This document shows, piece by piece, positions 30,105-46,775 of a stretch of 64,000 nucleotides of DNA. Made by a program: the position numbers and the translations under genes. The stretch's first letter is position 1, and the number at the start of each line of letters is the position of its first letter. Below the pieces are notes generated by a model. The model worked only from the letters and a program-made list of their open reading frames with translations. It was not told the origin of the DNA and did no database searches. This stretch comes from an uncultured Oscillospiraceae bacterium (lineage in GTDB: Bacteria > Bacillota > Clostridia > Oscillospirales > Ruminococcaceae), in NCBI GenBank assembly GCA_964622315.1, contig CAZUOY010000004.1, positions 2,064-66,063 of the forward strand, given 5' to 3'.

Positions 30105-30135
30105 AGTAATATAAATCATTAAAGAGGAAAGAAAT

Positions 30136-30366
30136 ATGTCTGTTTGTAATAAAATTAGAGCTCTAATGAACTTAACAGGAAAAAAGACACAGGAGGTGGC
30201 AGATAGTCTTGGGATATCTCCACAAGGGCTTAGAAATAAGCTATCACGGGATAGCTTTTCGGCGGAAGACTTAATTAAAATTTCTGCATGTTTAGGCTGT
30301 GAGTTGTCGATAGCGATGGACCAAAATATAAAAATCACTTTGGATTTGACAGATTTGGAGAAGTAA
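30136..30366 (+). CDS. XRE-family helix-turn-helix protein
   Basis: KIRALMNLTGKKTQEVADSLGISPQGLRNKLSRD is a typical HTH_3 pattern; 76 aa. Confidence 0.75.
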   Translation: MSVCNKIRALMNLTGKKTQEVADSLGISPQGLRNKLSRDSFSAEDLIKISACLGCELSIAMDQNIKITLDLTDLEK

Positions 30367-30459
30367 AACGTTCAATACAATTAATTAAAACGTTGAATAG
30401 TTCAGCGGTTCATGAGTAATAGTACTAAACTGGAATTATTGCGCAAGGAAGGGCAGACG

Positions 30460-31830: not shown

Positions 31831-31926
31831 TTGTGAAACACACTATTGGGTGGATTTAATACAGTGGCGGTAAGAAATTAAGTCGCCAGTTCTAAATTAA
31901 TAAAGCGTTACGCAACTTCGTTTTAA

Positions 31927-32018
31927 CGTAACACTAAAAAATAAAACTGTAACACAAATGAGCTTTAACGTTACAGTAAAAAATTTTTGTGTTACATAAA
32001 ATGCTTTTTGCGTAACAC
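31927..32018. repeat. Phased array of five YGTAACAC-type motifs (both orientations) at ~21-bp spacing
   Basis: CGTAACAC 31927, TGTAACAC 31948, CGTTACAG (reverse, partial) 31969, GTGTTACA (reverse) 31989, CGTAACAC 32011. A GCGTTACGC palindrome lies at 31905. Confidence 0.7.
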
Positions 32019-32551
32019 TTATTTTCTAAATATGATTTTACGAGGGCGTTATTTAATAGCTTTTAGCAAAAACAATTTGACGCGTCCCCGAAAATCACCT
32101 AAACTTTAGTTGTTAGAAGAAAAGAAAATCAATTTTGATACGCAAATGCGGTGCCAGTAATGGTGCCGCTTTTCTTTTTCTTCTTTTTACATATATAAGT
32201 CCTTTAGGTTTCAATGAAAAAAAGATGATGGGAAAGTAGGTAAGAAAAAGCATACAGCATCGGCTCGGCAAACCGGTGCTGTGTAGCCTCTGTGGAAAAT
32301 ACAGGGGAGCCAGCTATTCGGTTATTCGCCTTGGTTTGTAGCGAATAAACGGATAGAGAATATGTTCCTTGGTTTTTGGGATGTAGAACCGGCTACGGAG
32401 TAGCGAAAAACGCCCAACCGGTGCGGTTTCCAGCCATAGTGCTGTTGCAACCGTCCATACTTAACAGGCAATTCAATAACGAAAAATACGACCCGAGGGC
32501 GATAAAATCGCCGATTCGGTTTCTTCAGAACACCTAAAGGAGGAAAGTAGC

Positions 32552-33551
32552 ATGAAGAAAGCAAAAACGAACGAAGAATATCTGAGGGAGGCTAAGGATT
32601 CCCGCTTCCGCGAACTCAACAAAATTGGTACATCGAAAAAGCAGGCACGCGATGAGTACAACGAATGGCGGAAGGAGGAGGTGAGAAAAAACGGTAAGCC
32701 GATACCGACAGATTATGCGCCATCTCCGTACATCCACGGTCTTGGTACGCTAAAGCAGTACAATGCAATTTCAGAACATTATATTACTTACATAGTAGAG
32801 AATCATCCCGAAGCTTACAAGCTGTCGTATTGCTTTAAGCATGGATTTGCACACGAATATATTCAGACCCTTATTGATAAAGGTCAGAGCGCTTGGAGTA
32901 TAGCCCGTGCCCGCGCGGCTCTTGCGAAGCTGCATGGAAAAACAGGTCCCGAAATCCATAATGACATCCCTCGCCGCGAAGCTGAAGACATCACTAAAGG
33001 CAGAATGTCAGAACTTGAATATGCTGCCGCATTGAATGAGTATGGCGACATGGTTGCATTTGCACGCTGTGTCGGAGTTAGAAGTGCCACATTCGTCACG
33101 CTGACGCCGGATTGTTTTAAAACAGACAACGAAGGGAACCTTTTTCTCCACCTTGACGGTAAGCTTAATAATACCAAGGGGGGGGAAAACCTTCGATGTA
33201 GAAATTATTCCGACAAATCAGAAGTACGTCAGAGACTATATTTCGAAGCATAACCACGATGAACTGCTTTTTCCTGAAGTGCCGAGCCACTTAAATCTGC
33301 ATGGAGTTCGTGCATTCTTCGCAAAGGACTTCTACAATTTCTATGCGCGCGATATTGATGAAATAAAAAACAATAGGACAAAATATAAAGGAAGTATGAG
33401 AAGTGCAATCTACACTCGGAGAATTGAAGGCTTGAAGCCGAGTGAGCAGCCTTCTTATGATTTTGAGGCACTGTTGAGGATGTCAAGGTCGCTTGGTCAC
33501 GAGAGGGTGTGCACCTCAATTGTGCATTATCTCTACAACGTTGACGATTAG
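32552..33551 (+). pseudogene. Tyrosine recombinase/integrase interrupted by a +1 frameshift in a G8 homopolymer (33178-33185)
   Basis: ORFs 32552..33253 and 33153..33551 overlap. Removing one G gives ..LHLDGKLNNTKGGKTFDVEIIP... Catalytic signature CVGVRSAT (Arg), LHGVRAFF (H-x-x-R), LGHER..IVHYL (His, Tyr). Confidence 0.75.
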
Positions 33552-33586
33552 CTTAATATGAAGCATCTATATTGATGATTCAATTA

Positions 33587-33595
33587 TGCTATAAT
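33587..33595 (+). promoter_or_regulatory. Extended -10 promoter element (TGcTATAAT) upstream of the orphan two-gene cassette
   Basis: TGCTATAAT read directly, followed by the inverted repeat ATATCACT-caataca-GTGATAT. Confidence 0.4.
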
Positions 33596-33889
33596 ATGTA
33601 TATCACTCAATACAGTGATATGAAAGGTTACGAATTTTGTAGATGGGACAATGTCAACGAAGTCTTGTTTGATGGGACACACATTGAAATAGAACAACAC
33701 GAGTGTCTTGATTGAAGAGGCAGAAGCTTTCATGAGTAAATGTTAAGTACAAACTCAATACTGCTTGGATGCAAGTTATGTGGGTATAGTTACAAACGAC
33801 TAAATCACAAAAACATTAAGGTAGGGAATGTAGATAGGATGCGTTCTCAACATTAACCATTTGAGATTATCCCTCACTAAGGAGAAATT

Positions 33890-34870
33890 ATGAATAATAG
33901 TAAGGACGACACATTAAACTCTTTTCTTGATAGGTCTGAAAAAAAGATAAAAACGTTTAAATATAGTGTAACTGATAAACAATGGAATGAACTTGTAGGG
34001 TTTTATAATTACCTTACTTTTTGGGTTAATGGTTATCAACAGTTGCTTTATTATCTCCGAGAAAGACAGAATCTTGTTGAATTACATCGCACTGGTATAC
34101 CTATCACCTTATATATACATGATAAATACCACGAGGCAACAGCAGAGGTAATAAGTCAGTATCGTACTTTTTTTGAACATAGTAAGCAATTGCTAAATGC
34201 TTTTGTAGTTTTGCTCGGTCATATAATTGCAGACCATGAATTCAACAGAGTAAAAACCAGTAGTTTCGGAAAATGTATAAATTCATTTAGTAATGTTTCA
34301 GAATTCAATAATAAGTGTTTGAATAAACTTAAGGCATTATTTACTAAAGTTGGAAAGTTGATTGACAATACTATCTGTGAATATCGTGATAAACATGTTG
34401 AGCACGCAAAACTGTTAGGAGTAGGCGTAGCTCGAACATTCGGAGACTCGATGGTGTTAATTCACGATAAAGATGAAACACCTCCAATGTTATATCCCAT
34501 AGAAAAGGTAAAAGGTGTTTCGCGAATGTCAATATTCATTGATTACATAGGGATTCAGAGTACAAATGGAGGTACAGACTATATCTATCATATTAAGTCA
34601 AACAAAAATAAAGGAGATAGCGTTAGAACTGGTGAATGCATTGGACCCGCTTATGTAGATAGTTCTGGTATACACTTTGAAGAATATGGAAAGCACTATC
34701 ATGAATTTTCGTCAGAGAGTCGCAAGGTGCTCTATCCAGTTGCTTCACCAATACATAAAGGAACCACTTCACCGAAATCCGATGATTCTTTTGATATAAT
34801 GTGTTGTTTTATAGAAGAATGTTTGGGTATACTTTCTGAGTATGTCAAATCCTCCTCTGACAAAGAATAG
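33890..34870 (+). CDS. Hypothetical protein A of orphan cassette (helical N half, beta-rich C half)
   Basis: Strong RBS AAGGAGAAATT before the ATG; AT-rich codon usage. The only motif-like element is YRDKHVEH (R-x5-H) at aa 165-172. Confidence 0.6.
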   Translation: MNNSKDDTLNSFLDRSEKKIKTFKYSVTDKQWNELVGFYNYLTFWVNGYQQLLYYLRERQNLVELHRTGIPITLYIHDKYHEATAEVISQYRTFFEHSKQLLNAFVVLLGHIIADHEFNRVKTSSFGKCINSFSNVSEFNNKCLNKLKALFTKVGKLIDNTICEYRDKHVEHAKLLGVGVARTFGDSMVLIHDKDETPPMLYPIEKVKGVSRMSIFIDYIGIQSTNGGTDYIYHIKSNKNKGDSVRTGECIGPAYVDSSGIHFEEYGKHYHEFSSESRKVLYPVASPIHKGTTSPKSDDSFDIMCCFIEECLGILSEYVKSSSDKE

Positions 34871-34967
34871 TTTCTCCAAGCATTGTGTCCGAATGTCTAT
34901 TAATCTATATACAAGAAGCGAAATGTTATAGAAGAGTAAAAAATCAGTTTAACAGAAAGGGAAATTT

Positions 34968-36095
34968 ATGAAAAGCAACGAATTAATTGAAGGGTTTGCT
35001 AATTGTTTCATCTGTATTAGTTATAAATTGCATGATGATACTTACGGGGATTATCGACATTCAACAGCTTGTACTTTTACCAAATATGACCGGAATATTA
35101 ACATGTTTCCATCAGTTGAATCAACTAAAAGCAAAATGGAAATTGAAAAACTCTTGGACCATTTATACTCTATTCTTCCTGCGTTAAGAATAATTATAGA
35201 TAGAGATATTTACTTGCAAAGAGTTTTGCATTCCGTTGATACTATTTGGAGAAGCATCTTTAACGGTTTAAAAAACGCTTTTGATAAAGATATTTTAAAT
35301 GATGTTTCTATTATGTTCCCCTTTCTAAGAGCACATGGTTTGGGTGGGCATCCGTTGCTGTCTTTTCCATTGATTGTAAATTATCGAACGGGAGAACAAG
35401 AATTATGGGTAATTGAACCAATTCCAACAATTATTGACAATTCTCGCGAAAATGGAACTGAAGAAGCTATGTCTTTTGATACATTAGAAGACTACACGAT
35501 AAATTGTGACACATTAATGAGAACATCTCGTTTTATAGATTCATCTATATACAGTTACCCTCTGGATAATCCAAATGCTGACTGTAAGCATGTGCAGATT
35601 CATGAATCCTATATTTTGAAAAAACTATTAGAACACAGTTTTAAAATAGAATTAGGTGACGATAGAGTTAAAAAATGTGTAACAACCCAAGGCTTAGTTA
35701 CACCCACAAGAATGAAGAAATCATCGAGTATTACAATAACTTTCAATTCTGAAACTATCTTGATGGGAATTAACCAAGTGGAGTTTGATGCCTACCGACA
35801 AAAAGCAATAAAAGCCATCGTAGAAACCTGCATATATCGCAGCGTTTATTTTGGATTTATGGAAACTGAACAAATCACTCAATCTGAAAGTACTTCAATT
35901 CGAATTTACGAACAACTTAACAGAGCACGTTTTCTGAAGAAAATAGCTAAACCAAATTCTGTGGTTTTACCTCCAGCAAGCATAGAAAGCATAAATAGTT
36001 ATCTCCAAATAGAACAAATGAAAAATGTGCGCAATGCTTCTGAAATTGCAGGCACTCTTTTGGGAGCTGCATATAATCAAATTGAACCACCTTAA
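34968..36095 (+). CDS. Hypothetical protein B of orphan cassette
   Basis: RBS AAAGGGAAATTT before the ATG. Same strand and composition as protein A. No recognisable motif. Confidence 0.6.
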   Translation: MKSNELIEGFANCFICISYKLHDDTYGDYRHSTACTFTKYDRNINMFPSVESTKSKMEIEKLLDHLYSILPALRIIIDRDIYLQRVLHSVDTIWRSIFNGLKNAFDKDILNDVSIMFPFLRAHGLGGHPLLSFPLIVNYRTGEQELWVIEPIPTIIDNSRENGTEEAMSFDTLEDYTINCDTLMRTSRFIDSSIYSYPLDNPNADCKHVQIHESYILKKLLEHSFKIELGDDRVKKCVTTQGLVTPTRMKKSSSITITFNSETILMGINQVEFDAYRQKAIKAIVETCIYRSVYFGFMETEQITQSESTSIRIYEQLNRARFLKKIAKPNSVVLPPASIESINSYLQIEQMKNVRNASEIAGTLLGAAYNQIEPP

Positions 36096-36126
36096 CATAT
36101 CAATTATCTGAGGGTAACAGCAATCC

Positions 36127-36714
36127 TTACGCCAACTCCTTCTCAAAGCTTGGCATCTCCGCCCGTATCATCTTCCTCGCTTTCGTGAGGTCACCCGATA
36201 CCCACTCGTCGAGCTTGTCGGAGGGGATAATCACGGGCATACGGTGGTGGACGTCCTTCGTCGATTCGTTCGCCTCGGTCGTGAGTATCACGAATCTGCG
36301 CTCGCCGTCGAACTCATCCCATACACCCGCCATATAGATAACATCGTCCTTTGGTAGAGTAAAGAGGTATTTATCCTTCTTGCTCTTTCCCGTATCCTTC
36401 CATTCAAAAAAGCCCGTCGCAGGTACGACGCATCTGTTGTTCTCGAATCCGTTCGAGAACATTTTCTTTTCTGTGATGCTTTCACTGCGAGCGTTAACGA
36501 TAACGCCCTTGCCCGTGAAGTGGGGATAGCCCCAAGAGATAAGCTCAGCCGTACATTCCTTGCCGTCAGAGACGAGCACAGGTGCCTTGTCGGTGGGGTA
36601 AATCTCACCCTCTTTGACGGTGGCTTTCCCGTGATACTTCTCGTTAACCTCTTTGATTATCTGCATATATTCCTCGCGGTCATCGTCCGACGAAAACATA
36701 TATCTCCCGCACAT
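36127..36714 (-). CDS. SOS response-associated peptidase (SRAP/YedK family)
   Basis: N-terminal MCGRY with catalytic Cys2; PATGFFEW and HHRMPVI blocks. Confidence 0.85.
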   Translation of the reverse strand: MCGRYMFSSDDDREEYMQIIKEVNEKYHGKATVKEGEIYPTDKAPVLVSDGKECTAELISWGYPHFTGKGVIVNARSESITEKKMFSNGFENNRCVVPATGFFEWKDTGKSKKDKYLFTLPKDDVIYMAGVWDEFDGERRFVILTTEANESTKDVHHRMPVIIPSDKLDEWVSGDLTKARKMIRAEMPSFEKELA

Positions 36715-36775
36715 AGTGTCGCTCCTTCAATAAATATGTCTAAAGTATTCCCGAAATATTTAGAAATATTTCCTG

Positions 36776-36804
36776 TTTACATTTTACCACGGCGGATATA
36801 TAAT
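36776..36804 (+). promoter_or_regulatory. Promoter of the Y-family polymerase gene
   Basis: TTTACA - 17 nt - TATAAT. Confidence 0.55.
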
Positions 36805-36819
36805 TGAAACACAAAAAAA

Positions 36820-36831
36820 GAACAAATGTTC
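36820..36831. promoter_or_regulatory. LexA (Cheo) box GAAC-N4-GTTC
   Basis: aGAACAAATGTTCt lies 15 nt downstream of the -10. It matches the Firmicute LexA operator consensus CGAACnnnnGTTCG at the core. Confidence 0.7.
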
Positions 36832-36849
36832 TCACTGGAGCTGATTTTT

Positions 36850-38091
36850 TTGGAAAGGACAATTTTGCATTGTGATTTAAATGGGTTTTACGCTTCGGTG
36901 GAATGTTTTTACCACCCCGAGCTGAGACCTTTTCCTGTTGCTGTGGCGGGAGACCCCGAACAGCGGCATGGAATTATTCTTGCCAAAAACAGCGTGGCAA
37001 AGAAGTACAACATCAAGACGGGTGAGGCGATATGGCAGGCGAAACGCAAGTGCCCGAATCTAATCTGCCTTACTCCAAACTATGACCTATATGCAAAGCA
37101 CTCGCAGTTGGCAAGGGAGATTTATCAGGAGTATTCCGACAAGGTAGAAAGCTTCGGACCTGACGAGTGTTGGCTTGACGCTACGGGCGGAGTAGCTTCT
37201 TTTTCTGATGGCAAGCTTCTTGCCGACGAGATAAGGGAACGAATCAAGGCAGAGCTTGGGATAACCGCTTCGGTAGGAGTGAGCTTCAATAAGATATTCG
37301 CGAAGCTCGGCTCGGACTACAGAAAGCCAGACGCGACGACGGTAATCTCCGAGCAGAACTTCAAGGAAATCGTCTGGCCGTTGAGCGCGAACGATATGAT
37401 ATATGTCGGTCCCTCTACGGCGAGAAAGCTTGAGCGGTTCGCCATTCATACTCTTGGAGATGTAGCGAACGCCGATGTGGAGTTTCTTAAAAACAGGCTC
37501 GGCAAAGCGGGGGTTGTCCTGTGGCAATGGGCGAACGGTAAGGACTATTCACAGGTGCGGCAGTATCAAGCTTCGCCCGAAATCAAGAGCATAGGCAACA
37601 GCACTACCGCACCGCACGACCTCGCGACGGATAACGATATACGAATTACACTTAGACTTTTGAGCGAAAGTGTGGCGTCAAGACTTCGTGACGGCAACTA
37701 CCGCTGTCGGACGGTGCAGGTATCTATGCGGCAGACCGACCTATTCTATTACGAACGACAGATGGCGTTACCGTACCCGACAGCAGAGAGCGAAAGCATC
37801 TACGAGGCGGCGTACAGGCTTTTATGCAAGCACTCGTTCGAGGAGAAGCCGCTTCGCTCGGTTGGAGTGCGGGGAATGAACCTCGTGGACGATTCGGTCA
37901 CTCAGCTTAGTTTGTATCCTGAAATTCAGGCAATGCAGCAACAGGAGGAGCTTGAGCGGGCGATAGATTCACTCCGTAACCGCTTTGGCTTTCAGATAGT
38001 CAAACGCGGGCTTATGATGACCGACAACGCTCTATCTGCGCTTGACGCGAAGGGCGACCACACGGTGCACCCCGAGAGCTATTTTCGTTAA
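36850..38091 (+). CDS. dinB: Y-family DNA polymerase (DinB/ImpB-MucB-SamB family)
   Basis: ILHCDLNGFYASVE, SVGVSFNKIFAKLGSDYRKPD and little-finger region. TTG 36850 with GGAG 9 nt upstream is preferred because ATG 36826 lies inside the LexA box. Confidence 0.85.
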   Translation: MERTILHCDLNGFYASVECFYHPELRPFPVAVAGDPEQRHGIILAKNSVAKKYNIKTGEAIWQAKRKCPNLICLTPNYDLYAKHSQLAREIYQEYSDKVESFGPDECWLDATGGVASFSDGKLLADEIRERIKAELGITASVGVSFNKIFAKLGSDYRKPDATTVISEQNFKEIVWPLSANDMIYVGPSTARKLERFAIHTLGDVANADVEFLKNRLGKAGVVLWQWANGKDYSQVRQYQASPEIKSIGNSTTAPHDLATDNDIRITLRLLSESVASRLRDGNYRCRTVQVSMRQTDLFYYERQMALPYPTAESESIYEAAYRLLCKHSFEEKPLRSVGVRGMNLVDDSVTQLSLYPEIQAMQQQEELERAIDSLRNRFGFQIVKRGLMMTDNALSALDAKGDHTVHPESYFR

Positions 38092-38106
38092 AAAGGAGGC
38101 GGTAAA

Positions 38107-38343
38107 ATGGATTACAAAATCTATGTGAGAGTTAAGTCGGAAACCGACACGGACGGAAATATCGTTCCGACGCATATCATTTGGTCAGATGACCGAGAGT
38201 TCCCGATAGATAGAGTAATTGATGTCAGAAAAGCCGCCAGCACAAAAGCGGGCGGTCTTGGGCTTCGATATACCGTTCGTATTGACAATAAGGAGCGATT
38301 CCTCTATTACGAAGCTCCACGCTGGTTTGTTGAGAGGAAGTAG
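38107..38343 (+). CDS. Small conserved-looking protein following the polymerase gene
   Basis: RBS AGGAGGCGG; 78 aa; ends RYTVRIDNKERFLYYEAPRWFVE. Polymerase-accessory role is inferred from position only. Confidence 0.5.
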   Translation: MDYKIYVRVKSETDTDGNIVPTHIIWSDDREFPIDRVIDVRKAASTKAGGLGLRYTVRIDNKERFLYYEAPRWFVERK

Positions 38344-38347
38344 TAGT

Positions 38348-38530
38348 ATGAACAGATACTTTGTACGAGATATGACCGAGCTTTATCGGCAACACACCAA
38401 CGCAGACCTATACGAGCAACAGATTGATACGCTTAAATGCCTGCTTCAAAGCGGCGCAATAACAAAAGAGCAGTATGAGCATAGCGAGAGGGTATTGAAG
38501 CAAAATATGGAAGCAGTGGTTTCGTTATAA
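38348..38530 (+). CDS. Small hypothetical protein (60 aa)
   Basis: ATG 38348 directly follows the upstream stop; helical, no motif. Confidence 0.35.
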   Translation: MNRYFVRDMTELYRQHTNADLYEQQIDTLKCLLQSGAITKEQYEHSERVLKQNMEAVVSL

Positions 38531-38703
38531 GCGGTGATAGATATATAATAATAAGTTCTGCGTAGCGAATTGCTCCTTATTGACAAAAAACGACAAAAAC
38601 AAACCCATATGTTGTTATTTTGTTTAAAAACGGTGTATAATGGGGATGTTCTTGTAATCGCAATTAAGATTCAGCGGATAATAAAGTCAAAGAGGAAAGT
38701 ATA

Positions 38704-40509
38704 ATGGGATATCAAGCAAAATTGCAGAAAGTACATATTAAAAACTTTAGGTCAATAGTTGACGAAACGATTTATTTTGATAATTTTAATATTTATGTGG
38801 GACTCAATGATTGTGGAAAATCAAATGTTCTGAAAGCATTAAATCTTTTTTTTAATGGGCAAACTGAAAATGGTCATTTGCTTGATTTCCCCCGAGATTA
38901 TGCTCAACATGGTAAGACGGGAAAAGGAAAAGCTAAAGAAATTGTAATAGAAATCAGCCTAATTATACCAGATAATTTTAAAGAGGCCGGAATAAAATCT
39001 TGGAAAAAAGTTTGGCGCGATAATGATTTGTTTAGTGATAACTTATCTGAAATTGTTGATGAATATTCAAAATGTACAACTTTACTTAAAAGAATCAAGT
39101 TTGAGTATATTCCTGCCGTAAAAAGTGAATCTTTCTTTCAAGAACTCTTACTTGAATTATACAATTCAATGACAATTTCCGCAGATAGTGCACTCCATAC
39201 AGCAAACTTGGAGTATTCTAAAGCTCTAACTGAGCTTACTCAAAATTTAAGTGAAAATGTCAAAAATAAAGTAGGTTTAGACTCAAGCGTAATGATGCCT
39301 GACAAGCTTTCAGTTCTATTTAGAAATTTAAAAATTAATACAAAAGATGAAAACATTAAGGATATTGATTTAAATCATCGTGGTGATGGGATAAAAGCTC
39401 GCCATATACCATCAATATTATTAACAATTGCCCATAATATTAAGAACTCAAGAAAAAGGAATTCTGTTGATTATTCATTTATATGGGGCTACGAAGAACC
39501 AGAAAATGGAGTTGAGTTTTTTGCTTGCTCGCAATTAGCTGATGAACTGTACTCATATTCAAAAGAGTTACAATTAATAATAACAACCCATTCACCAGCC
39601 ATATATTCAAAAAGCAATATGCAAGACTGCAAATGCTATTATGTGTATAAAACAGAATGTGGTGACTCAAAGTACGATACAAATTATAGTTTTATTGAGT
39701 TAAATAAAAATATAGGCTTAATGCCATTAATTGCTCCTTACGTTCAAGATTTTCAAAAAGTGATAGAAGAGAGGAGCAGTGCAATAAGTTCTTTAGAAGA
39801 AGAGAACAAGCGCATAAATCAGATGACAAATCGTGTAATTCTATATACAGAGGGAAAAACGGATGTTAAATATCTCAAAAAGGCTTTTGAAACATTTAAA
39901 GAATATGGAGATGTCTCGCATAGAATTGAGTATTATGATATAGAAAATGCACGGTTTACAGGGGACGGTGAACTCAAGAAAATTTTTGATTACTTACAAA
40001 AAGGTAATGATTCCAATATTAAGATTATGATGTTCGATAGGGATGTTGAAGACAAAATTATAGAGTACGAATTTGAAAAGGGACAAAACAAAGTGTATCG
40101 CTTTAATATTCCTATTCCACCCCACCGTAAATCTAATGACAAGATTTCAATAGAACATTTTATTGAAGATGATAATTTGTCAGTGGTTGATACGATGGGA
40201 CGACGCTTGTTCATGGCAAAAGATTTCGATTATAAGGGAATCTCATTAGATGGAAAATACACATTTAACCATGCTAAGAATCCGTTAGACGCTAAATACA
40301 ATCCTCTGGAAATAATTAATGGTTCTGCAGATAAAAAAGTCTTTAGTGTTAATCCTAACGATAATAAAAACTATGCAATGTCCAAGGATGACTTTGTTAA
40401 TCATATAATTAATGAGGATGAGGGCTTCTGCTTTGATTTATCTGTATACAAACTAATCTTAGATTTAATATGCAGAATTATTGCAGATGCAGATACGAGT
40501 AAAACATAA
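38704..40509 (+). CDS. OLD-family-like ABC ATPase fused to a Toprim-like C-terminal domain (class-1 OLD or fused PARIS AriA-AriB-like)
   Basis: IKNFRSI..VGLNDCGKSNVLKAL (Walker A), YEEPENGV (Walker B), IITTHSP (H-loop). C-terminal VILYTEGKTDVKYLK and IMMFDRDVED (Toprim-type E ... DxD). 601 aa, AT-rich. Confidence 0.65.
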   Translation: MGYQAKLQKVHIKNFRSIVDETIYFDNFNIYVGLNDCGKSNVLKALNLFFNGQTENGHLLDFPRDYAQHGKTGKGKAKEIVIEISLIIPDNFKEAGIKSWKKVWRDNDLFSDNLSEIVDEYSKCTTLLKRIKFEYIPAVKSESFFQELLLELYNSMTISADSALHTANLEYSKALTELTQNLSENVKNKVGLDSSVMMPDKLSVLFRNLKINTKDENIKDIDLNHRGDGIKARHIPSILLTIAHNIKNSRKRNSVDYSFIWGYEEPENGVEFFACSQLADELYSYSKELQLIITTHSPAIYSKSNMQDCKCYYVYKTECGDSKYDTNYSFIELNKNIGLMPLIAPYVQDFQKVIEERSSAISSLEEENKRINQMTNRVILYTEGKTDVKYLKKAFETFKEYGDVSHRIEYYDIENARFTGDGELKKIFDYLQKGNDSNIKIMMFDRDVEDKIIEYEFEKGQNKVYRFNIPIPPHRKSNDKISIEHFIEDDNLSVVDTMGRRLFMAKDFDYKGISLDGKYTFNHAKNPLDAKYNPLEIINGSADKKVFSVNPNDNKNYAMSKDDFVNHIINEDEGFCFDLSVYKLILDLICRIIADADTSKT

Positions 40510-40869
40510 TTTTACATTAATGAAATTTATTTATATTAATTAAAACAATTTTTGTATACATGAGATACAAATACATAAATAACCCAGAAGGGAAAGCAAC
40601 TTTGCGGTGCGATATTTTACAGTATTTATTTTTTCATTCAAGAGCGTGATTAATGATAAATAGGATGTAATAATCAATTTGGTGATTGGTAGGATGTTGT
40701 TTATAAGTGAATTCAACCCCAAACTATTGCGCTTGGGAACACATTGTGTTAGCCGACTATATAGAATAAGGTTTTTACAGTTATCGAATATATTGTGTGA
40801 TGAGTTGTAAGCATTTAGGCTAAAATGTTATAATAATGAAAAGTAAAACCCTCATGCAGGGAAAAATGA

Positions 40870-41124
40870 ACCGAACCCTTACCTCAACTATCAAACATTC
40901 ATGTATCAAATGATATGCGCGGGCAAGGAATCGGTAAGGAATTATTCAACATGGCAAAGGCATGGGCGAAAAATAGGCAGGCGGATAAACTATATATTTC
41001 TGCCCATTCCTCAGTCGAGAGTCAGGCTTTCTATAAAGCTATGGGGTGCGAAGAGGCGGCGGAATATAATTAACAGCTGGCGGAAAAAGAGCCCTGCGAC
41101 TGTCAAATGGAGTGCGTGTTATAA
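40870..41124 (+). pseudogene. GNAT acetyltransferase remnant: 5'-truncated with an in-frame TAA at 41071
   Basis: Frame shifted from ORF 40901..41167. It reads ..LSNIHVSNDMRGQGIGKELFNMAKAWAKNRQADKLYISAHSSVESQAFYKAMGCEEAAEYN-stop-QLAEKEPCDCQMECVL. The R/Q-x-x-G-x-G AcCoA motif is present and the N-terminal half is absent. Confidence 0.7.
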
Positions 41125-41495
41125 GTGCGATTTGATGTGTAATCAGGTGCATTATCGGAAAATTTGACACCCGAAGAAAATCTATATATACTTTGCTTGA
41201 AACAGGGTTATCGTCGTTAATACCGCTCGGGAGATGTCCCCTTGGGGTCGATTGCGACAGATACCCTGTTTTTATTTTATTAAGATGAAATAAAAAGGGT
41301 TAAAGCAAATTCGTCAGAAACAAAAAAACAAACCATCATAGTTACAGGCGCTCAGGCTGCAATTGCCGTCAGCAGTAACAAATTTTGATTCTAAAGCAAG
41401 AATTCAAAATTAGTCAATTACGAATTGCCGAATCGTACTTGACTAAATATTTATCCTATGATATATTGTATGCGTAAGAAAACGGAGGTGACGGT

Positions 41496-42884
41496 ATGTT
41501 TATCGGAAGAAACAGCGAGCTTGATACGCTAAATAAGCTTTACAGTTCCGAAAGGTTCGAGTTTGCGGTTATCTACGGCCGCCGCCGCGTCGGGAAAACC
41601 GCGCTTATTAATGAGTTTATCAGCGACAAAAGGGCGATATACTTTATGGGCGTTGAGAGCAACGAAAAACAGAACCTCGAAAATTTCAGTAAAAGCGTGA
41701 TTGAATTCAGTTCGGGGATAGCCGCCGAGACTTCGTTTTTATCGTTTCAGCACGCTATTGAGTATGTTTTTGAGCTTGCGAAAAAGGAACGGATTATACT
41801 CGCGATTGACGAGTATCCGTATGTTGCGCGGGCGTCAAAAAGTCTCGCTTCTACGCTCCAGTTACTGATTGACAAAAACAAAGATACATCGAAGCTGATG
41901 CTTATACTCTGCGGCTCTTCTATGTCATATATGGAGGACAACGTTCTCGCTTATAAGGCACCGCTGTACGGAAGAAAAACCGCGCAGATAAAGCTCCTTC
42001 CCTTTAGCTTTTGGGAAACCTGCAGATATTTTACCGGCTTTTCCGCTGAGGACAAGGCGCTGATATACGGTATTGTCGGAGGAACGCCGCAGTATCTTCT
42101 TCAGATGAACGATAGCCTGAGCGTAGCGGAGAATATAAAGAACACTTTTTTGAATCCGACCTCGTCGCTGTATGAGGAGTCCGAAAACCTTCTGAAGCAA
42201 GAGGTTCGCGAGCCGTCGCTTTACAACGCGATTATCACGGCGATAGCTAACGGAGCTACTCGAATGTCTGAAATATCAGGCAAAGTGGGCGAAGACACCA
42301 ACGTATGCTCGACCTATCTCAAGAATCTCACAACTCTCGGAATAGTTAAAAAGGAAACACCTTACGGCGAAAAGGTTTCTCACAAATCGATATACTCTAT
42401 TGAAGACAATATGTTTAAGTTTTGGTATCGCTTTGTGCCGGAGAACAATTCGTTAATAGCGCGCGGAGCGGCGGAGCTTGCATACAAACGCATTGAGCCG
42501 CACCTTAACGAATATATGGGAAAGATATTTGAGGATATCTGCGCTCAATACCTATGGCGTCGGCTTCTTTCGGGGAGCTGTCCCGTTCGGTTTTCTTCTC
42601 TCGGCAGATGGTGGGGAAACGACCCGAACGAGAAAAAGCAGACAGAGATAGATATTATGGGCGAGCAGGACAAGAGTACTGCGCTTTTTGCGGAGTGTAA
42701 ATGGACGAACGAAAAGGTAGACGAAGAGGTCCTCGGCACGATTATAAAGCGAAGTAAACTTTTCGGCTATACGAAGACGCACCTGTTTTTATTTGCTAAG
42801 AGTGGGTTTACAAAAAGCTGTGAGGTCAAAGCCGCCCAGCTCGGAAATGTCACGCTTGTTAATTACAAAGATATGATTGAATGA
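41496..42884 (+). CDS. ATP-binding protein (archaeal-type ATPase domain plus DUF234)
   Basis: FIGRNSEL..L.......FAVIYGRRRVGKTALI Walker A, ILAIDEYPY Walker B, C-terminal EIDIMGE..ALFAECKW DUF234-like block. Confidence 0.8.
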   Translation: MFIGRNSELDTLNKLYSSERFEFAVIYGRRRVGKTALINEFISDKRAIYFMGVESNEKQNLENFSKSVIEFSSGIAAETSFLSFQHAIEYVFELAKKERIILAIDEYPYVARASKSLASTLQLLIDKNKDTSKLMLILCGSSMSYMEDNVLAYKAPLYGRKTAQIKLLPFSFWETCRYFTGFSAEDKALIYGIVGGTPQYLLQMNDSLSVAENIKNTFLNPTSSLYEESENLLKQEVREPSLYNAIITAIANGATRMSEISGKVGEDTNVCSTYLKNLTTLGIVKKETPYGEKVSHKSIYSIEDNMFKFWYRFVPENNSLIARGAAELAYKRIEPHLNEYMGKIFEDICAQYLWRRLLSGSCPVRFSSLGRWWGNDPNEKKQTEIDIMGEQDKSTALFAECKWTNEKVDEEVLGTIIKRSKLFGYTKTHLFLFAKSGFTKSCEVKAAQLGNVTLVNYKDMIE

Positions 42885-43006
42885 AAAAGGCAGACTGTTA
42901 TTCAGTCTGCTTTTTTGTTATTTTGTGGTTACTGTCCGTTTTTTGGGACGGCTCGGATGATATAATACGGGTGTAAGAGAGAAGAAGGATTTTTAGAGGA
43001 GGATGT

Positions 43007-43222
43007 ATGGGCGATATATTTAATCCGATGAAATGTCAGGTGGAGTTACTGAGAATAATACAGAACTCGAAACTATCTCTGAATTCCGAACATGAGATTT
43101 TAATGACTCTAAAAAAATTCCGAAAAGAACAAAGAGAAAATATGGCGCAAAGTCTTATCAATTTAATACAGTCAAGTCGAACCGAAGAAGCAATTATTGA
43201 GAAGCTGAAAGCGCTCGATTAA
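43007..43222 (+). CDS. Small hypothetical protein (71 aa)
   Basis: Strong RBS AGAGGAGGATGT before the ATG; helical. Confidence 0.45.
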   Translation: MGDIFNPMKCQVELLRIIQNSKLSLNSEHEILMTLKKFRKEQRENMAQSLINLIQSSRTEEAIIEKLKALD

Positions 43223-43253
43223 ACTACACATAAAATTAATAGGAGGGTTTACC

Positions 43254-43433
43254 ATGTTTTTAGACGGTGACGGAAAACTGTTTGATTTCGACGAAAACGG
43301 AAGGCTTAATTCTTTTGAGCAGAGCGAAATGGAGCTCTTTGAGTTCGGCGACGGCAGTATGCACGAGCCGAACGGCGTAGACATCTATGATGAAGACGAT
43401 TTTGACGACGACGAGGATGACGACGATTTTTAG
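43254..43433 (+). CDS. Small highly acidic protein (59 aa) with DxDxDG-like start
   Basis: RBS AGGAGGG. MFLDGDGKLFDFDENGRLNSFEQSEMELFEFGDGSMHEPNGVDIYDEDDFDDDEDDDDF. Below the ORF-track cutoff. Confidence 0.45.
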   Translation: MFLDGDGKLFDFDENGRLNSFEQSEMELFEFGDGSMHEPNGVDIYDEDDFDDDEDDDDF

Positions 43434-43664
43434 GAGGCAGCGATAAAGACTATTGTTTAGTGTTTAGTTTTTCGCTTGCCGTATCCCCGAAAATGCTATA
43501 ATATATACATATAAAATAAATAAAAAACAAAACCGTTACGCAAATACTGCGTAGCGGTTATTTTTTTGCTCTTTTTTCGGAGCACATATTACTTTTTAGA
43601 AAGGACGGGTGTAAACAAATAGCAAGTGAATACATACAAGCAATAATGGCAATAATTGTATTGA

Positions 43665-43883
43665 ATGGAGGCGCATATGAACATTCAGATTTCCGAAAAT
43701 GACAAGATAGTAGCCTTCTGGCTTACAAATAAGGAAAAGGCAGACGATAAATTCCGTGAAACGCTAAAGCCGCAATATTCCGAATGGAAAAAGAAAGGCT
43801 ACAGGGTTGCGGTTTTTATTTCCGGAAACGAGAACCTTTTAAAGAATACGGAAAGCTTACTGTTAAACAACAAAAATATTTAG
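43665..43883 (+). CDS. Small hypothetical protein (72 aa)
   Basis: ORF followed by terminator GGCAACCGCCCCTGC-gatatat-GCAGGGCGGTTGC plus TTTT (43903-43943). Confidence 0.4.
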   Translation: MEAHMNIQISENDKIVAFWLTNKEKADDKFRETLKPQYSEWKKKGYRVAVFISGNENLLKNTESLLLNNKNI

Positions 43884-44050
43884 TGAGAAAATCAATATTA
43901 TAACGGCAACCGCCCCTGCGATATATGCAGGGCGGTTGCTTTTATATAGAATGTCGTTCGGCGCATATTTGAAATAGGTTTGTTTTTAATATATACTGAC
44001 TTTAGATTGATACACAAATCTGATTGAGATTAGCAAAAAGGAGAAAAAGA

Positions 44051-44371
44051 ATGATTATTACAACAACACCCTCTGTGGAGGGAAAAACAATAGTAGATTA
44101 CAGGGGCATAGTTTTCGGCGAAGTAGTTTCGGGGGTAGATTTCGTCAAGGATTTTGCCGCCTCGCTAAACAATATTTTCGGCGGACGTTCCGGAAGTTAT
44201 GAGGAAGAGCTGATTCAGGCAAGACAGAACGCCATAGGCGAGATGGAACAGCGCGCGGTTTCTGTCGGTGCAAACGCGATAGTCGGTGTCGATATCGACT
44301 ACGAGGTGCTCGGCTCGAATAACGGAATGTTAATGGTAACCGCAAGCGGTACGGCCGTTGTTGTTCAGTAA
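44051..44371 (+). CDS. YbjQ-family (UPF0145) protein
   Basis: [57 protein letters not shown] before ATG 44051. Confidence 0.8.
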
Positions 44372-44521
44372 AAGCATATTAATAAATCGGCGCTTCGTTT
44401 TACAGAAACGGAGCGCCTTTATTGGTGAGAGTTCGTCTCTTTTCCCATTAACACAACAATGCCGTAGACGCAGTTAAAAAACAATCACACATAAGTTTGG
44501 ATGGCCGGTTGTAAGCGTTAC

Positions 44522-44557
44522 TTGAAAAGAAGAAAGCTGTATGATACAATATTGTAT
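44522..44557 (+). promoter_or_regulatory. Promoter of the serine recombinase gene with an overlapping 14-bp palindrome
   Basis: TTGAAA - 17 nt - TACAAT. The perfect palindrome ATACAATATTGTAT (44544-44557) covers the -10. Confidence 0.5.
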
Positions 44558-44603
44558 ACAAACGAAGCTAAACAACAAACAACATTGAAAGGAGGGCGCT
44601 GAA

Positions 44604-46775
44604 ATGGCGAAAGCTACAGAGAACATCGCGGCATATATGCGTATTTCGGTAGATACCGAAGCGGATAGAGATAACACTTCTATTGAAAACCAACGAGCTA
44701 TAATTAAAGCCTATATAAAGAATAGGTTTTCCGATGTACAGACGACATATTATGAAGACCGCGACCGCAGCGGATACACCTTCAAACAGCGAGAAGGATA
44801 TCAAAGCATGCGGCCGCTATTACTAAGCGGAAAACACAACATCTTAATAGTAAAAGACCTTTCACGATTTTCCCGCAGAAACAGCCGCGGACTTGTTGAG
44901 CTGGAGGATTTGCGTGACGCGGGCGTCAGGATTATTTCGATTGATGACTGTATCGACTATCCGACCCGTGATGAGTGGCAGCAAATTCAGTTTAAATTTT
45001 TGATGAATGAAATGCCGGTAACTGATGCGTCTCGCAAGGTGAAAAGCGTTATTAACCGCCGACAGAACGACGGCAAATGGATTTGCAGCGTTCCCTTCGG
45101 TTATGTCATAACTAATACAAAAAACATGACGGTATCCGTTGATGAAAAATCTGCCGAGATTGTCAGATTAGTTTTTAATAAGTACCTTGAAGGTTGGGGC
45201 TATAAAAAAATAGCGAATTTTTTAACTGATAAGAATATGCCGACTCCGCGTGCTGTTGAAAAAGAATTCAGAGAAGCCGACGGAACTGTTACAAACATAA
45301 AACCCAAGGATACATGGTCGATTGCAACGGTTCAGGGAATATTGAAAAACGATTTCTATATCGGAACCCTCCGCCAGAGAAAGTACACTCGAAAGAATAT
45401 CAACGGTAAGGATATGAAGCTTGACGAGGAAGAAAACATAGTCTTTGAAAACCATCACGAGGCTATTATAGATTATCGGACCTTTTCAAAAGTTCAGCAA
45501 CAGCTGGTTAGCCGTTCGAAAAACAACTATCGAGGTGTTTCGAAGTATCCGACGGTATATTCGGGATTCCTTTTCTGCGGCGACTGCGGAAGTCCGATGT
45601 TCTCCATGAGCCGTCCCGATTTGCCTGCGGCGTATACATGCGGAAGCTATCATAGACGCGGCAAAAAGGGATGCTCATCACATCACATCAGAGTCGACGC
45701 AATGGACAGCATCCTTAAAATGTATGTGAAAAAAGTATTAGAGAACTCAAAGGAAATGATAGCCCAGCTTGAAAAGTCCATTGCTCAAGAGCCTGATAAG
45801 CTTAAATCAAGCACCTCGACTGTTGAAGCGTTGGAAAAGGACCTTGAGAAAGCTAAGGATGTTTTGAAGAATACCCTGAAGCAGAAGGTTAAAGAAATTA
45901 CCGCGCACCCCGACATGGAGGAAGTGCTTTCGGAAACCTTTGATTCAATGATTGAAGAAGCTGACAAAAAAATCAAGGGAATCGAGAATCAAATTACTCT
46001 CGTGGCCGATAAGCGCAATGTGATTATTCACACCAACAGAATTGCGAAGACAGCGCTTGAGATTTTCAACGACATTATTAATAAGCCTGCGTTAGACAAA
46101 AACGATTTAGAGGTTATAATCAATCGTATGGTTGTTTACGAGGACCATGTTGATATTGAGCTAAAGTCCGATATTGATATGCTGATAAAGACCGGCTCTC
46201 TCACAGAGGAAAGGGAAATGGCAACGGCAACGGTAAATTTTAAGTGGGACACCGACAGTATCTTAAGAGCCAAAGCAGTCCTAAAACAGCGAAATAAGAG
46301 GGACGAGGCTATCGGTGTCAATGTTATCAGTAAGGGCGAGCCGCTTGAGATTTTCACAAGCGGCGACGGAGACGTTATCTTCAGAAAATACTCGACCATG
46401 AACGAGCTTGCAAACTGCGCTGATAAGTATGCCGAGGTGCTGTTTTCGTCAATAAAGCAGCCCGTCATCGTCTGCGACAGGGACGCGGTATGCGCGGCGT
46501 ATCCCTCAAAGAAGAAGGAGCTTGTCGGCAAGCGGATAAGCGAGGAGCTTGAGGAAAAGATACGTGGGCGCGATTCCGCGGTGATGGGCGAGGGTATTTT
46601 CTGCCTTAGCAACTATAAGGAAAAGGCGAGCGTGGTCGTACCCGTGCGAGCGGCTGGAAGCGCTATAGGATGTATCGCGGTCTTACAGTCCGATTCGTCA
46701 AAAAAGGTGGAAGACAAGGACATCTCTATGCTCGAAACCGCGTCTAAGCTGCTCGGTGCGCAGACGGAGAGCTGA
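44604..46775 (+). CDS. Large serine recombinase; the ORF continues without a stop across attR into the spoVT 3' segment (chimeric 723-aa ORF)
   Basis: Resolvase N domain (AAYMRISVDTE..NQ), recombinase domain, zinc ribbon CGDCGSPM..CGSYHRRGKKGC and coiled-coil region. The last ~142 codons are SpoVT C-terminal sequence. Confidence 0.88.
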   Translation: MAKATENIAAYMRISVDTEADRDNTSIENQRAIIKAYIKNRFSDVQTTYYEDRDRSGYTFKQREGYQSMRPLLLSGKHNILIVKDLSRFSRRNSRGLVELEDLRDAGVRIISIDDCIDYPTRDEWQQIQFKFLMNEMPVTDASRKVKSVINRRQNDGKWICSVPFGYVITNTKNMTVSVDEKSAEIVRLVFNKYLEGWGYKKIANFLTDKNMPTPRAVEKEFREADGTVTNIKPKDTWSIATVQGILKNDFYIGTLRQRKYTRKNINGKDMKLDEEENIVFENHHEAIIDYRTFSKVQQQLVSRSKNNYRGVSKYPTVYSGFLFCGDCGSPMFSMSRPDLPAAYTCGSYHRRGKKGCSSHHIRVDAMDSILKMYVKKVLENSKEMIAQLEKSIAQEPDKLKSSTSTVEALEKDLEKAKDVLKNTLKQKVKEITAHPDMEEVLSETFDSMIEEADKKIKGIENQITLVADKRNVIIHTNRIAKTALEIFNDIINKPALDKNDLEVIINRMVVYEDHVDIELKSDIDMLIKTGSLTEEREMATATVNFKWDTDSILRAKAVLKQRNKRDEAIGVNVISKGEPLEIFTSGDGDVIFRKYSTMNELANCADKYAEVLFSSIKQPVIVCDRDAVCAAYPSKKKELVGKRISEELEEKIRGRDSAVMGEGIFCLSNYKEKASVVVPVRAAGSAIGCIAVLQSDSSKKVEDKDISMLETASKLLGAQTES
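46333..46346 (+). repeat. attR core (14-bp direct repeat)
   Basis: AGGGCGAGCCGCTT, identical to 27323-27336 and in the same codon phase. Confidence 0.8.
46347..46775 (+). pseudogene. spoVT: spoVT 3' segment (linker plus GAF-like C-terminal domain, codons 35-176)
   Basis: EIFTSGDGDVIFRKYS..KYAEVLF..VIVCDRD..SKKKELVGKRIS..GSAIGCIAVLQS..ETASKLLGAQTES parallels the remembered B. subtilis SpoVT sequence. Confidence 0.85.

What the first reader, a model, noticed from the sequence alone, without database searches (positions are those of the whole stretch)
46317..46346. Reconstructed attP has near-perfect 14-bp inverted arms around the shared core
Joining the sequence left of attR to the sequence right of attL gives GTCAATGTTATCAG-ta-AGGGCGAGCCGCTT-CTGACAACATTGAC (46317-46346 followed by 27337-27350). 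The outer 14-mers are reverse complements of each other except for one base (GTCAATGTTATCAG versus GTCAATGTTGTCAG). Imperfect inverted half-sites flanking a short central crossover region are what large serine recombinase attP sites look like. This symmetry exists only in the excised-circle junction, not in the integrated sequence. It therefore supports the breakpoint assignment independently and places the crossover dinucleotide near the middle of TAAGGGCGAGCCGCTT.
Basis: seen in the sequence. Interest (0 to 1): 0.7.

Follow-up and report, generated by a model that had tools for sequence, protein, structure and literature searches.

The report
Serine-recombinase attP site splitting spoVT
The two ends of a 19-kb mobile island that splits the sporulation regulator gene spoVT join into a typical large-serine-recombinase attachment site, and related islands sit at the same codons of spoVT in dozens of gut Clostridia genomes examined here (relatives of the recombinase are in several hundred species).

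Summary
A 14-bp direct repeat, AGGGCGAGCCGCTT, lies at 27323-27336 and 46333-46346. It brackets a 19,010-bp AT-richer island. Joining the island ends gives GTCAATGTTATCAG-TA-core-CTGACAACATTGAC. The arms match 13/14, and 17/22 positions are symmetric about G46338|A46339. attL, attR and attB show no such symmetry.

The interrupted gene is spoVT. The two fragments rebuild a 176-aa SpoVT, and an 81%-identical uninterrupted orthologue reads straight through the junction.

The recombinase at 44604 has the three large-serine-recombinase domains. Its nearest solved relative is SPbeta SprA, whose attP has the same core-plus-inverted-repeat layout.

Evidence from relatives supports the reading:
- A 60%-identical recombinase carries the same kind of attP as one contiguous piece, with the island's right end joined to its left end.
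- Reconstructing attP from three integrated relatives gives the same pseudo-palindrome.
- The left arm is invariant even at synonymous codon positions in 47 diverged genes.
- One lineage changed CAATG to CAACG in both arms.

Comparative data place the crossover within GGCGA. The symmetry centre picks GA.

Integration therefore swaps the recombinase's last 25 codons for SpoVT's C-terminal domain, in frame. The site is an ordinary LSR attP; the target gene is the unusual part.

The parts
46314..46338 (+). P half-site of attP (25 bp, left of the symmetry centre).
   Evidence: Positions 9-23 from the centre are nearly invariant in 47 non-redundant relatives, including synonymous sites.
27329..27353 (+). 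P' half-site of attP (25 bp, right of the symmetry centre).
   Evidence: The same CAATG..T.TCAG-type arm is found in the P' halves of L001, L015, L034, L035, L094, L100 and L101.
46333..46346 (+). Core copy in attR (AGGGCGAGCCGCTT). It is shared by attP and attB.
   Evidence: exact 14-bp identity with 27323-27336.
27323..27336 (+). Core copy in attL (AGGGCGAGCCGCTT). It covers spoVT codons 30-34 (E-G-E-P-L).
46338..46339 (+). Predicted crossover dinucleotide GA in attR. The equivalent in attL is 27328-27329. It is the first two bases of the Glu/Asp codon of G-[ED]-P-L.
   Evidence: It is the symmetry centre of attP in the window and in 6 relatives. The identity block between attL and attR is only GGCGA (-4..+1) in L034. 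The position is inferred, not measured.
27337..46332 (+). Island-specific DNA. The insertion is 19,010 bp, counted repeat to repeat. Cargo: DUF6036 nucleotidyltransferase plus HTH protein, TnpB, type I methyltransferase, SRAP, Y-family polymerase, OLD/GajA-like ATPase-Toprim protein, PDC-S27 ATPase, YbjQ. No phage structural genes and no conjugation genes were found.
   Evidence: GC is about 0.40 against 0.45-0.52 in the flanks.
44604..46775 (+). Open reading frame of the integrated state. It consists of the large serine recombinase (residues 1-576, to 46331), the core, and then the SpoVT C-terminal domain (46347-46775) fused in frame, 723 aa in all.
   Evidence: The identical protein P0001 is found in public assemblies. 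PDB: SprA/YokA, E 1.3e-15. PHROG 95 integrase, E 6e-90.
27235..27414 (+). spoVT 5' fragment (codons 1-34, 27235-27336) fused in frame to 25 island codons (27337-27411) plus a stop. In the excised form those 25 codons are the recombinase's own C-terminal tail (LTTLTREESFCIAINNFYRRCVKTS).
   Evidence: The tail is conserved at protein level, with synonymous DNA differences, in L001, L034, L035, L100 and L101.
46347..46775 (+). spoVT 3' fragment (codons 35-176 plus the stop codon at 46773-46775). A terminator-like hairpin lies at 46820-46854.
43677..43883 (+). Small conserved ORF (68-72 aa) of unknown family. It is a candidate accessory or directionality factor of the recombination module.
   Evidence: It lies immediately upstream of the recombinase, on the same strand, in 41 of 43 related loci whose cargo otherwise differs. 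It has no Pfam or PHROG match. The proposed function is an inference from linkage only.

Best explanation
The 44-50 bp sequence obtained by joining 46314-46346 to 27337-27353 is the attP site of the large serine recombinase (LSR) encoded at 44604. Two recombinase subunits would bind the two imperfectly inverted half-sites. These are about 25 bp each, and the conserved GTCAATGTT block lies at positions 14-22 from the centre. The recombinase would pair this site with the asymmetric attB inside spoVT (codons 30-34, E-G-[ED]-P-L). It would cut both at the central GA and exchange strands. That inserted the 19-kb island and produced attL (27304-27353) and attR (46314-46363). Because attP lies inside the recombinase ORF and the core is read in the same frame in both genes, integration creates two chimeric ORFs. 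One is SpoVT(1-34) plus the recombinase tail. The other is the recombinase plus SpoVT(35-176). Excision, probably with an island-encoded directionality factor, would restore both genes exactly. Shown from sequence: site architecture, breakpoints, family-wide conservation, and the joined form in a relative. Inferred: protein binding, the cleavage position, and present-day activity.
For: The arms match 13/14 and the site is 17/22 symmetric, only in the joined form; none of 200,000 random junctions matched this. The recombinase has the three LSR domains, and its nearest solved structure is SPbeta SprA. SprA's experimentally mapped attP is a 16-bp shared core flanked by 16-bp inverted repeats, cut at the centre, with an asymmetric attB (PMC5499854). 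The rebuilt spoVT is complete, and an intact orthologue with GalK synteny reads through the junction. L001, with a 60%-identical LSR, carries a contiguous attP: GGTGTCAATGTTATATGTGGCGGCG|ACCCGTTACATACATCATTGACACC. Its right side matches the left ends of the integrated elements L034 and L035 at 82-86%. The same LSR in L002 and L003 is identical up to ...GGCGACCCG and then continues into spoVT. Reconstructed attP sites of L034, L035 and L094 are symmetric about the same G|A. L094 has CAACG in both arms where all others have CAATG. Own-pair arm matches exceed most re-pairings: 19 of 720 pairings reach the observed value. The left arm is invariant at synonymous sites in 47 non-redundant genes: GTC 47/47 against 24% background, GTT 45/47 against 27%. 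In-frame LSR-SpoVT_C fusions make up 115 of the 120 best protein clusters and nearly all of the 80 best loci kept from the scan of GTDB species-representative genomes.
Against: No excised or empty-site copy of this particular element was found. The exact-arm pattern gave 0 hits in viral contigs. A looser attP pattern gave 0 hits in viral contigs and only one relative in metagenomes. Both public copies of this element are integrated. A zinc-ribbon motif shifted 5 bp inward in attB, as in the Listeria integrase model, could not be demonstrated. In the integrated state the recombinase is a fusion lacking its conserved native tail, so it may be inactive. No directionality factor has been identified. 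Nothing here is experimental.
Confidence: 0.88

Rival explanations
1. The arms are terminal inverted repeats of a DDE-type transposon, and the 14-bp direct repeat is a target-site duplication.
For: Formally, the pattern of direct repeat, inverted end, cargo, inverted end, direct repeat is what a cut-and-paste transposon leaves. A TnpB gene is present in the island.
Against: No DDE transposase is present. TnpB/IS605 elements have neither terminal inverted repeats nor target duplications, and this one sits internally at 28869-30017. The layout is asymmetric: the core abuts the arm on the left, but TA separates them on the right. The 'duplication' length varies in relatives at the same site, from 5 to 14 bp. 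In the loci examined the family inserts at the same codon of the same gene (the 80 best loci from the species-representative scan), which is site-specific recombination and not transposition. The arms lie inside the LSR ORF, and the joined form exists in L001.
Confidence: 0.02
2. The inverted similarity is a by-product of protein-coding constraint (G-V-N-V-I on one side, L-T-T-L-T on the other) and has no DNA-binding role.
For: Both arms are translated, and both peptides are conserved in relatives.
Against: Synonymous third positions in the left arm are fixed far beyond codon usage. The two arms encode different peptides yet keep the same DNA word. L094 changed the same base in both arms. The symmetry centre coincides with the only block shared by attL and attR in L034.
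Confidence: 0.04
3. The site is a genuine but fossil attP. The island is now immobile, and spoVT is permanently inactivated in this host, which would have lost sporulation.
For: Only integrated copies of this element were found. The integrated recombinase is a fusion without its native tail. The cargo carries an IS-type TnpB insertion. Several family hosts, such as Ruminococcus flavefaciens, are to my knowledge not known to sporulate (hosts listed).
Against: The recombinase ORF is intact over all three domains, and both arms and both core copies are intact. The spoVT fragments show no frameshift or stop and are 86% identical in protein to an intact orthologue. The linked small ORF is also intact. 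A relative exists in the joined form.
Confidence: 0.2

Closest known systems
SPbeta prophage SprA/SprB system in Bacillus subtilis spsM (PMC4191935, PMC5499854)
   Same: A large serine recombinase, the nearest solved structure to this one. Its attP is a 16-bp core shared with attB, flanked by 16-bp inverted repeats, giving 25-bp symmetric half-sites. Cleavage is at the central dinucleotide and attB has no obvious symmetry. The element splits a sporulation gene ORF, and precise excision rebuilds it.
   Different: The relationship is distant (E 1e-15). SPbeta is a 134-kb active phage, whereas this is a 19-kb island with defence-type cargo. The centre is AA in SPbeta and GA here. spsM is a mother-cell gene, whereas spoVT is a forespore regulator (PMC3789822). 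Here attP lies inside the recombinase ORF, so both recombination products are chimeric ORFs.
skin element / SpoIVCA in sigK, and other gene-intervening elements (vfbin-spoVFB, vrin-spoVR, gin-gerE, yin-yabG)
   Same: [quoted passage not shown] The gin element is likewise not prophage-like (PMC5595907).
   Different: All described targets are expressed in the mother cell, and excision there is not inherited. I found no paper naming spoVT as a target. The family here is far more widespread than any single described element: relatives of the recombinase are in several hundred species representatives.
Listeria A118/LI integrase attP-attB model (PMC3783163)
   Same: 25-bp half-sites, with a distal conserved block of about 9 bp. 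Here it is GTCAATGTT at positions 14-22; in LI the ZD motif is at 16-24. A non-palindromic central dinucleotide and integration into a coding gene.
   Different: The predicted 5-bp inward shift of the distal motif in attB could not be shown here. There is no close sequence relationship.
Clostridial LSR transposons Tn4451 (TnpX) and Tn5397 (TndX)
   Same: Clostridial hosts, small mobilisable elements, and a GA crossover dinucleotide (from my memory of the literature; not verified here, one search found nothing). Some relatives in this family carry Mob/Pre-type relaxase or RepA_N genes.
   Different: TnpX and TndX insert at many sites and need no directionality factor. This family is essentially specific to one site in spoVT, with rare secondary sites at G-E-P-L in rtcB, msrB and an AbrB-like gene.
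SSV1-type archaeal integrases whose attP lies within the integrase gene
   Same: Integration partitions the recombinase gene itself (from my own knowledge).
   Different: Those are tyrosine recombinases, and the gene is split into two inactive parts. Here only the last 25 codons are exchanged, and the catalytic and DNA-binding domains stay intact.

Membership tests
Large serine recombinase attP site | A cognate recombinase with an N-terminal serine catalytic domain, a recombinase domain and a zinc-ribbon domain, encoded in the same element | tested here: met
   PF00239 residues 8-159, PF07508 residues 182-301, PF13408 residues 319-372. PHROG 95 integrase. SprA match over residues 7-490.
Large serine recombinase attP site | A pseudo-palindromic site of about 40-60 bp made of two imperfect inverted half-sites of about 20-25 bp | tested here: met
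   17/22 symmetric (19/28) about G|A in the window. The figure is 15-21/28 in six relatives.
Large serine recombinase attP site | A central dinucleotide identical in attP and attB and lying at the symmetry centre | tested here: met
   GA lies within the attL/attR identity block in the window (14 bp), L035 (11 bp), L094 (11 bp) and L034 (5 bp, GGCGA). Actual cleavage was not measured.
Large serine recombinase attP site | An attB that shares only the core, lacks attP's symmetry, and carries the distal motif shifted about 5 bp inward | tested here: inconclusive
   Lack of symmetry is met (7/22). The shift test gave no unique peak: shifts of 3, 5, -1 and -7 score alike.
Large serine recombinase attP site | Conservative recombination that restores both partners exactly | tested here: met
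   In silico, the rebuilt spoVT is a full-length SpoVT and is colinear with an intact orthologue. The rebuilt recombinase gains the tail seen in the contiguous form in L001.
Large serine recombinase attP site | Recombinase-dependent attP x attB recombination | not testable with these tools
   This needs an in vitro or two-plasmid assay.
Sporulation-gene-intervening element (skin/SPbeta type) | Inserted within the ORF of a sporulation gene, which is rebuilt in frame by excision | tested here: met
   spoVT is split after codon 34.
Sporulation-gene-intervening element (skin/SPbeta type) | Developmentally timed excision confined to the mother cell, so the element stays in the spore genome | not testable with these tools
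   By established knowledge, SpoVT acts in the forespore (PMC3789822). A mother-cell-only excision would therefore not restore its function. This argues against simple membership but was not tested here.
Sporulation-gene-intervening element (skin/SPbeta type) | A directionality factor under sporulation control | not tested
   There is only a linked small ORF of unknown family. No promoter analysis beyond a sigma-70 scan was done.

The most novel reading that the evidence does not exclude
These elements form a widespread, undescribed class of spoVT-intervening islands in gut Clostridia, and their logic differs from skin/SPbeta. The target is the forespore regulator, so restoring it requires excision in the germ-line compartment, or reversible excision and re-integration. 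The attP embedded in the recombinase ORF makes the recombinase itself change form with the integration state: a native tail when free, and a SpoVT GAF-like domain when integrated. This could couple recombination directionality or sporulation competence to the element's state.
Probability: 0.25. Interest if true: 0.75.

Novelty: new member of a known kind. Interest (0 to 1): 0.5.

Why it matters
The result gives a defined attP/attB pair and a predicted crossover for a new large serine recombinase, backed by natural variation across dozens of genomes. That is directly usable for recombination assays. It adds spoVT to the short list of sporulation genes split by recombinase-borne elements. It is the first case I could find in which the split gene acts in the forespore. 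This raises a testable question: how, or whether, such hosts still make spores while keeping the element. It also explains a recurrent annotation oddity. Hundreds of 'recombinase family' or 'SpoVT C-terminal domain' proteins of about 730 aa in Clostridia MAGs are attR read-through fusions.

Tried and rejected
(1) I searched for an excised copy of this element. The exact-arm pattern with any 16-bp spacer gave 0 hits in viral contigs. A looser attP pattern gave 0 hits in viral contigs. In metagenomes it gave one true relative (L015) and one chance hit (L016).

(2) Two GenBank 'Bacteriophage sp.' fragments carry 52-56% identical recombinases. One ends exactly before the att site and the other lacks it, so neither is informative.

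(3) I looked for an inward 5-bp shift of the distal motif in attB. There was no unique peak, so the result is inconclusive.

(4) I tried to identify the directionality factor. The linked small ORF has no Pfam, PHROG or word-index relatives beyond two near-identical hits. No structure prediction was attempted, because only two alignable sequences were admissible.

(5) L074 at first looked like a third contiguous attP. However, it is followed by a chemotaxis-receptor gene and an intact spoVT 3 kb downstream. I treat it as unexplained and do not rely on it.

(6) I considered and rejected the transposon (TIR plus TSD) reading and the pure coding-constraint reading (see the rival explanations).

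(7) The idea that the tail completes an AbrB-type fold in the SpoVT(1-34)::tail chimera was considered. It was not tested, because a fair alignment-free prediction was not feasible.

(8) Literature searches for spoVT as an integration target, and for the arm sequence itself, found nothing relevant. Supplementary catalogues of recombinase sites were not searchable.
Full report
OBSERVATION. AGGGCGAGCCGCTT occurs at 27323-27336 and at 46333-46346. The identity is exactly 14 bp. Immediately right of the first copy lies CTGACAACATTGAC (27337-27350). Left of the second copy lies GTCAATGTTATCAG (46317-46330), followed by TA.

The two 14-mers are reverse complements at 13/14 positions. When the right junction's left side is joined to the left junction's right side, the symmetry extends into the spacer: 17 of 22 positions pair about the centre G46338|A46339. 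The best symmetry anywhere in attL is 10/22, in attR 11/22, and in the rebuilt attB 9/22 (7/22 at the same centre).

None of 200,000 random junctions made from this window reached either 13/14 or 17/22. The degenerate 14-mer occurs only twice in 64 kb, at these two places on opposite strands.

WHAT IS INTERRUPTED. The ORF starting at 27235 encodes MRATGIVRRIDDLGRVVIPKEIRRTMRIREGEPL. After the core at 46347 the frame continues EIFTSGDGDVIFRKYS... to a stop at 46775. Joined, these give a 176-aa protein. It matches Pfam MazE_antitoxin (AbrB-type domain) at residues 7-49, across the junction, and SpoVT_C at 54-175.

The closest intact relative (P0121, 86% protein and 81% DNA identity) reads ...CGCGAGGGCGAGCCGCTCGAAATATTCACC... 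without interruption. It is followed by a galactokinase 80% identical to the one downstream in the window. So the host gene is spoVT. The insertion is 19,010 bp, and the breakpoints lie within the 14-bp repeat. The insert is AT-richer than its flanks: about 0.40 GC against 0.45-0.52.

THE RECOMBINASE AND THE ISLAND. The ORF at 44604 has Resolvase, Recombinase and Zn_ribbon_recom domains. It matches the phage integrase family PHROG 95. Its nearest solved structure is SPbeta SprA (E 1.3e-15 over residues 7-490).

The cargo is not phage-like. It comprises:
- a DUF6036 nucleotidyltransferase with an HTH partner
- TnpB
- a type I methyltransferase
- SRAP and a Y-family polymerase
- an OLD/GajA-like ATPase-Toprim protein
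- a PDC-S27 ATPase
- YbjQ

None of the seven further cargo ORFs scanned matched a PHROG family.

The recombinase ORF does not stop before the site. It reads through the left arm (G-V-N-V-I-S-K) and the core (G-E-P-L). In the integrated state it continues in frame into SpoVT residues 35-176, giving a 723-aa fusion.

In the joined form it would instead continue through the right arm (L-T-T-L-T) for 25 codons: ...REESFCIAINNFYRRCVKTS*. Reciprocally, spoVT codons 1-34 are fused to those 25 codons (27235-27414). attP therefore lies inside the recombinase gene, and integration exchanges C-termini between the two genes.

EVIDENCE FROM RELATIVES. A protein search returned 8,000 relatives. Of the 120 best clusters (about 60% identity), 115 are the same kind of recombinase-SpoVT_C fusion. 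In the 80 best loci nearly every recombinase is fused in frame to spoVT at G-[DE]-P-L. Hosts are Acutalibacteraceae, Oscillospiraceae and Ruminococcus (including R. flavefaciens 007c and ATCC 19208), Eubacterium sp. MSJ-21 and Hominimerdicola aceti.

Five lines of evidence bear directly on the finding.

(a) Contig L001 encodes a recombinase (P0011) that is not fused to SpoVT. It reads through a contiguous site GGTGTCAATGTTATATGTGGCGGCG|ACCCGTTACATACATCATTGACACC. The arms match 16/18, and the tail HTSLTPYEKFCYAMLQFAERCIGK is homologous to the window's tail, with mostly synonymous DNA differences. The DNA right of the centre in L001 matches, at 82-86%, the DNA next to attL in the integrated relatives L034 and L035. 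This is the same level of identity as the recombinase genes themselves. L001 therefore holds the right end joined to the left end, as expected for an excised circle (or a tandem copy).

(b) The same recombinase in L002 and L003 is identical to L001 up to ...GGCGACCCG and then continues into spoVT.

(c) Three integrated relatives contain both junctions. Their reconstructed attP sites are symmetric about the same G|A: 21/28, 21/28 and 18/28. L034's reconstruction is identical to L001's contiguous site except at one base next to the centre (+2: T in L034, C in L001).

(d) L094 has CAACG in both arms where every other site has CAATG. The inner arm words (TCAG, TATGT, TCTG) also agree between the two arms of each site. 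Own-pair matches sum to 89 against a mean of 81.8 over all 720 re-pairings, and 19 pairings reach that value. This is modest support for co-variation.

(e) In 47 non-redundant recombinase genes, positions 9-23 of the left half-site are nearly invariant, including synonymous third positions. GTC is 47/47 where Val codon usage is 24%. GTT is 45/47 against 27%. AAT is 44/47 against 54%. That is selection on the DNA word, not only on the peptide.

Two further attL sites from viral contigs (L100, L101) carry the same P' arm and tail.

CROSSOVER. The exchanged dinucleotide must lie where attL and attR are identical. That block is 14 bp in the window (-6 to +8), 11 bp in L035 and L094, and only GGCGA (-4 to +1) in L034. 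The symmetry centre of every attP falls between the G and the A. The predicted crossover is therefore GA at 46338-46339 and 27328-27329.

These are the first two bases of the Glu/Asp codon, which stay GA whichever of the two residues is encoded. It is an inference, not a measurement.

HOW IT MOST LIKELY WORKS. The architecture is that of the experimentally dissected SPbeta system. That system has a 16-bp core shared by all att sites and 16-bp inverted repeats in attP that extend to 25-bp symmetric half-sites. Cleavage is at the central dinucleotide, and attB has no obvious symmetry (PMC5499854). The half-site length and the distal conserved block (GTCAATGTT at positions 14-22) also fit the Listeria integrase-attP structure, where a 9-bp zinc-ribbon motif occupies positions 16-24 (PMC3783163).

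I could not show the predicted 5-bp inward shift of that motif in attB, because several offsets score alike.

A small ORF (43677-43883) lies just upstream of the recombinase in 41 of 43 relatives whose cargo otherwise differs. It has no known family. It is the best candidate for a directionality or accessory factor, on linkage alone.

COMPARISON AND NOVELTY. As an attP site this is a textbook member of the large-serine-recombinase kind. As an element it joins skin (sigK), SPbeta (spsM), vfbin, vrin, gin (gerE) and yin (yabG). I found no paper naming spoVT as a target.

All described targets are mother-cell genes, and excision there is not inherited. SpoVT is the forespore's ancillary regulator and is required for heat-resistant spores in C. 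difficile (PMC3789822). The known logic therefore cannot simply be transferred. Whether these hosts sporulate, excise the element in the forespore, or have lost spoVT function is open.

Rare fusions of the same recombinase to rtcB, msrB and an AbrB-like gene, all at G-E/D-P-L, look like secondary sites.

LIMITS. No excised or empty-site copy of this exact element was found. No experiment was possible. One relative (L074) has an attP-like contiguous site next to chromosomal-looking genes and an intact spoVT, which I cannot explain.

VERDICT. The site itself is ordinary for its class. Its target, its position inside the recombinase ORF and its wide distribution make the surrounding system moderately interesting.

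Noticed in passing
window 31903-32020: Three 29-nt units (GTTACGCAACTTCGTTTTAACGTAACACT and two 72% copies) spaced 42 nt apart. Each has an internal palindrome GTTACG...CGTAAC. They lie in the gap between the type I methyltransferase gene and the next ORF. There is no Rfam match.
   Followed up: partly
window 43677-43883: A small ORF of unknown family lies directly upstream of the recombinase in 41 of 43 related loci. In the window, a YbjQ gene (44024-44371) and a terminator-like hairpin (44389-44417) have come between it and the recombinase, which has its own promoter-like site at 44522-44550.
   Followed up: partly
L074 9986-15069: In an Oscillospiraceae MAG, a family recombinase reads through an attP-like contiguous site. 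It is followed by a chemotaxis-receptor gene and, 3 kb on, an intact spoVT. This could be a secondary site, a rearrangement or a misassembly; it is not resolved.
   Followed up: partly
proteins P0019, P0020, P0120: One and the same recombinase backbone is fused in frame to RtcB, to MsrB and to an AbrB-like protein with a zinc finger, each time right after G-E/D-P-L. These are apparent secondary integration sites that share the core.
   Followed up: no
window 28869-30017 (minus strand): A TnpB (IS605 OrfB / Cas12f-like) gene sits inside the island next to the type I methyltransferase. No specificity or restriction subunit was recognised among the neighbouring ORFs. The restriction-modification system may therefore be disrupted.
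   Followed up: no
window 27550-27569, 38409-38428, 43992-44011: A 20-nt word TATACTAACGATAGATTGAT recurs at 80-85% identity just upstream of three island genes. The first copy overlaps a strong sigma-70-like promoter match at 27527-27555. It may be a shared promoter or leader element.
   Followed up: no
window 46982-48798: A BlaI/BlaR1-type pair (with an added Peptidase_M23 domain) lies between spoVT and galK in the window. It is absent from the orthologous locus L006, where galK follows spoVT directly.
   Followed up: no
L097 (MT839487.1), record end: A GenBank 'Bacteriophage sp.' contig from human faeces carries a 56%-identical recombinase and stops exactly at the start of the att site (...AAGGTTTTCCGTG). 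This is as expected if assemblies break where integrated and excised forms coexist.
   Followed up: no
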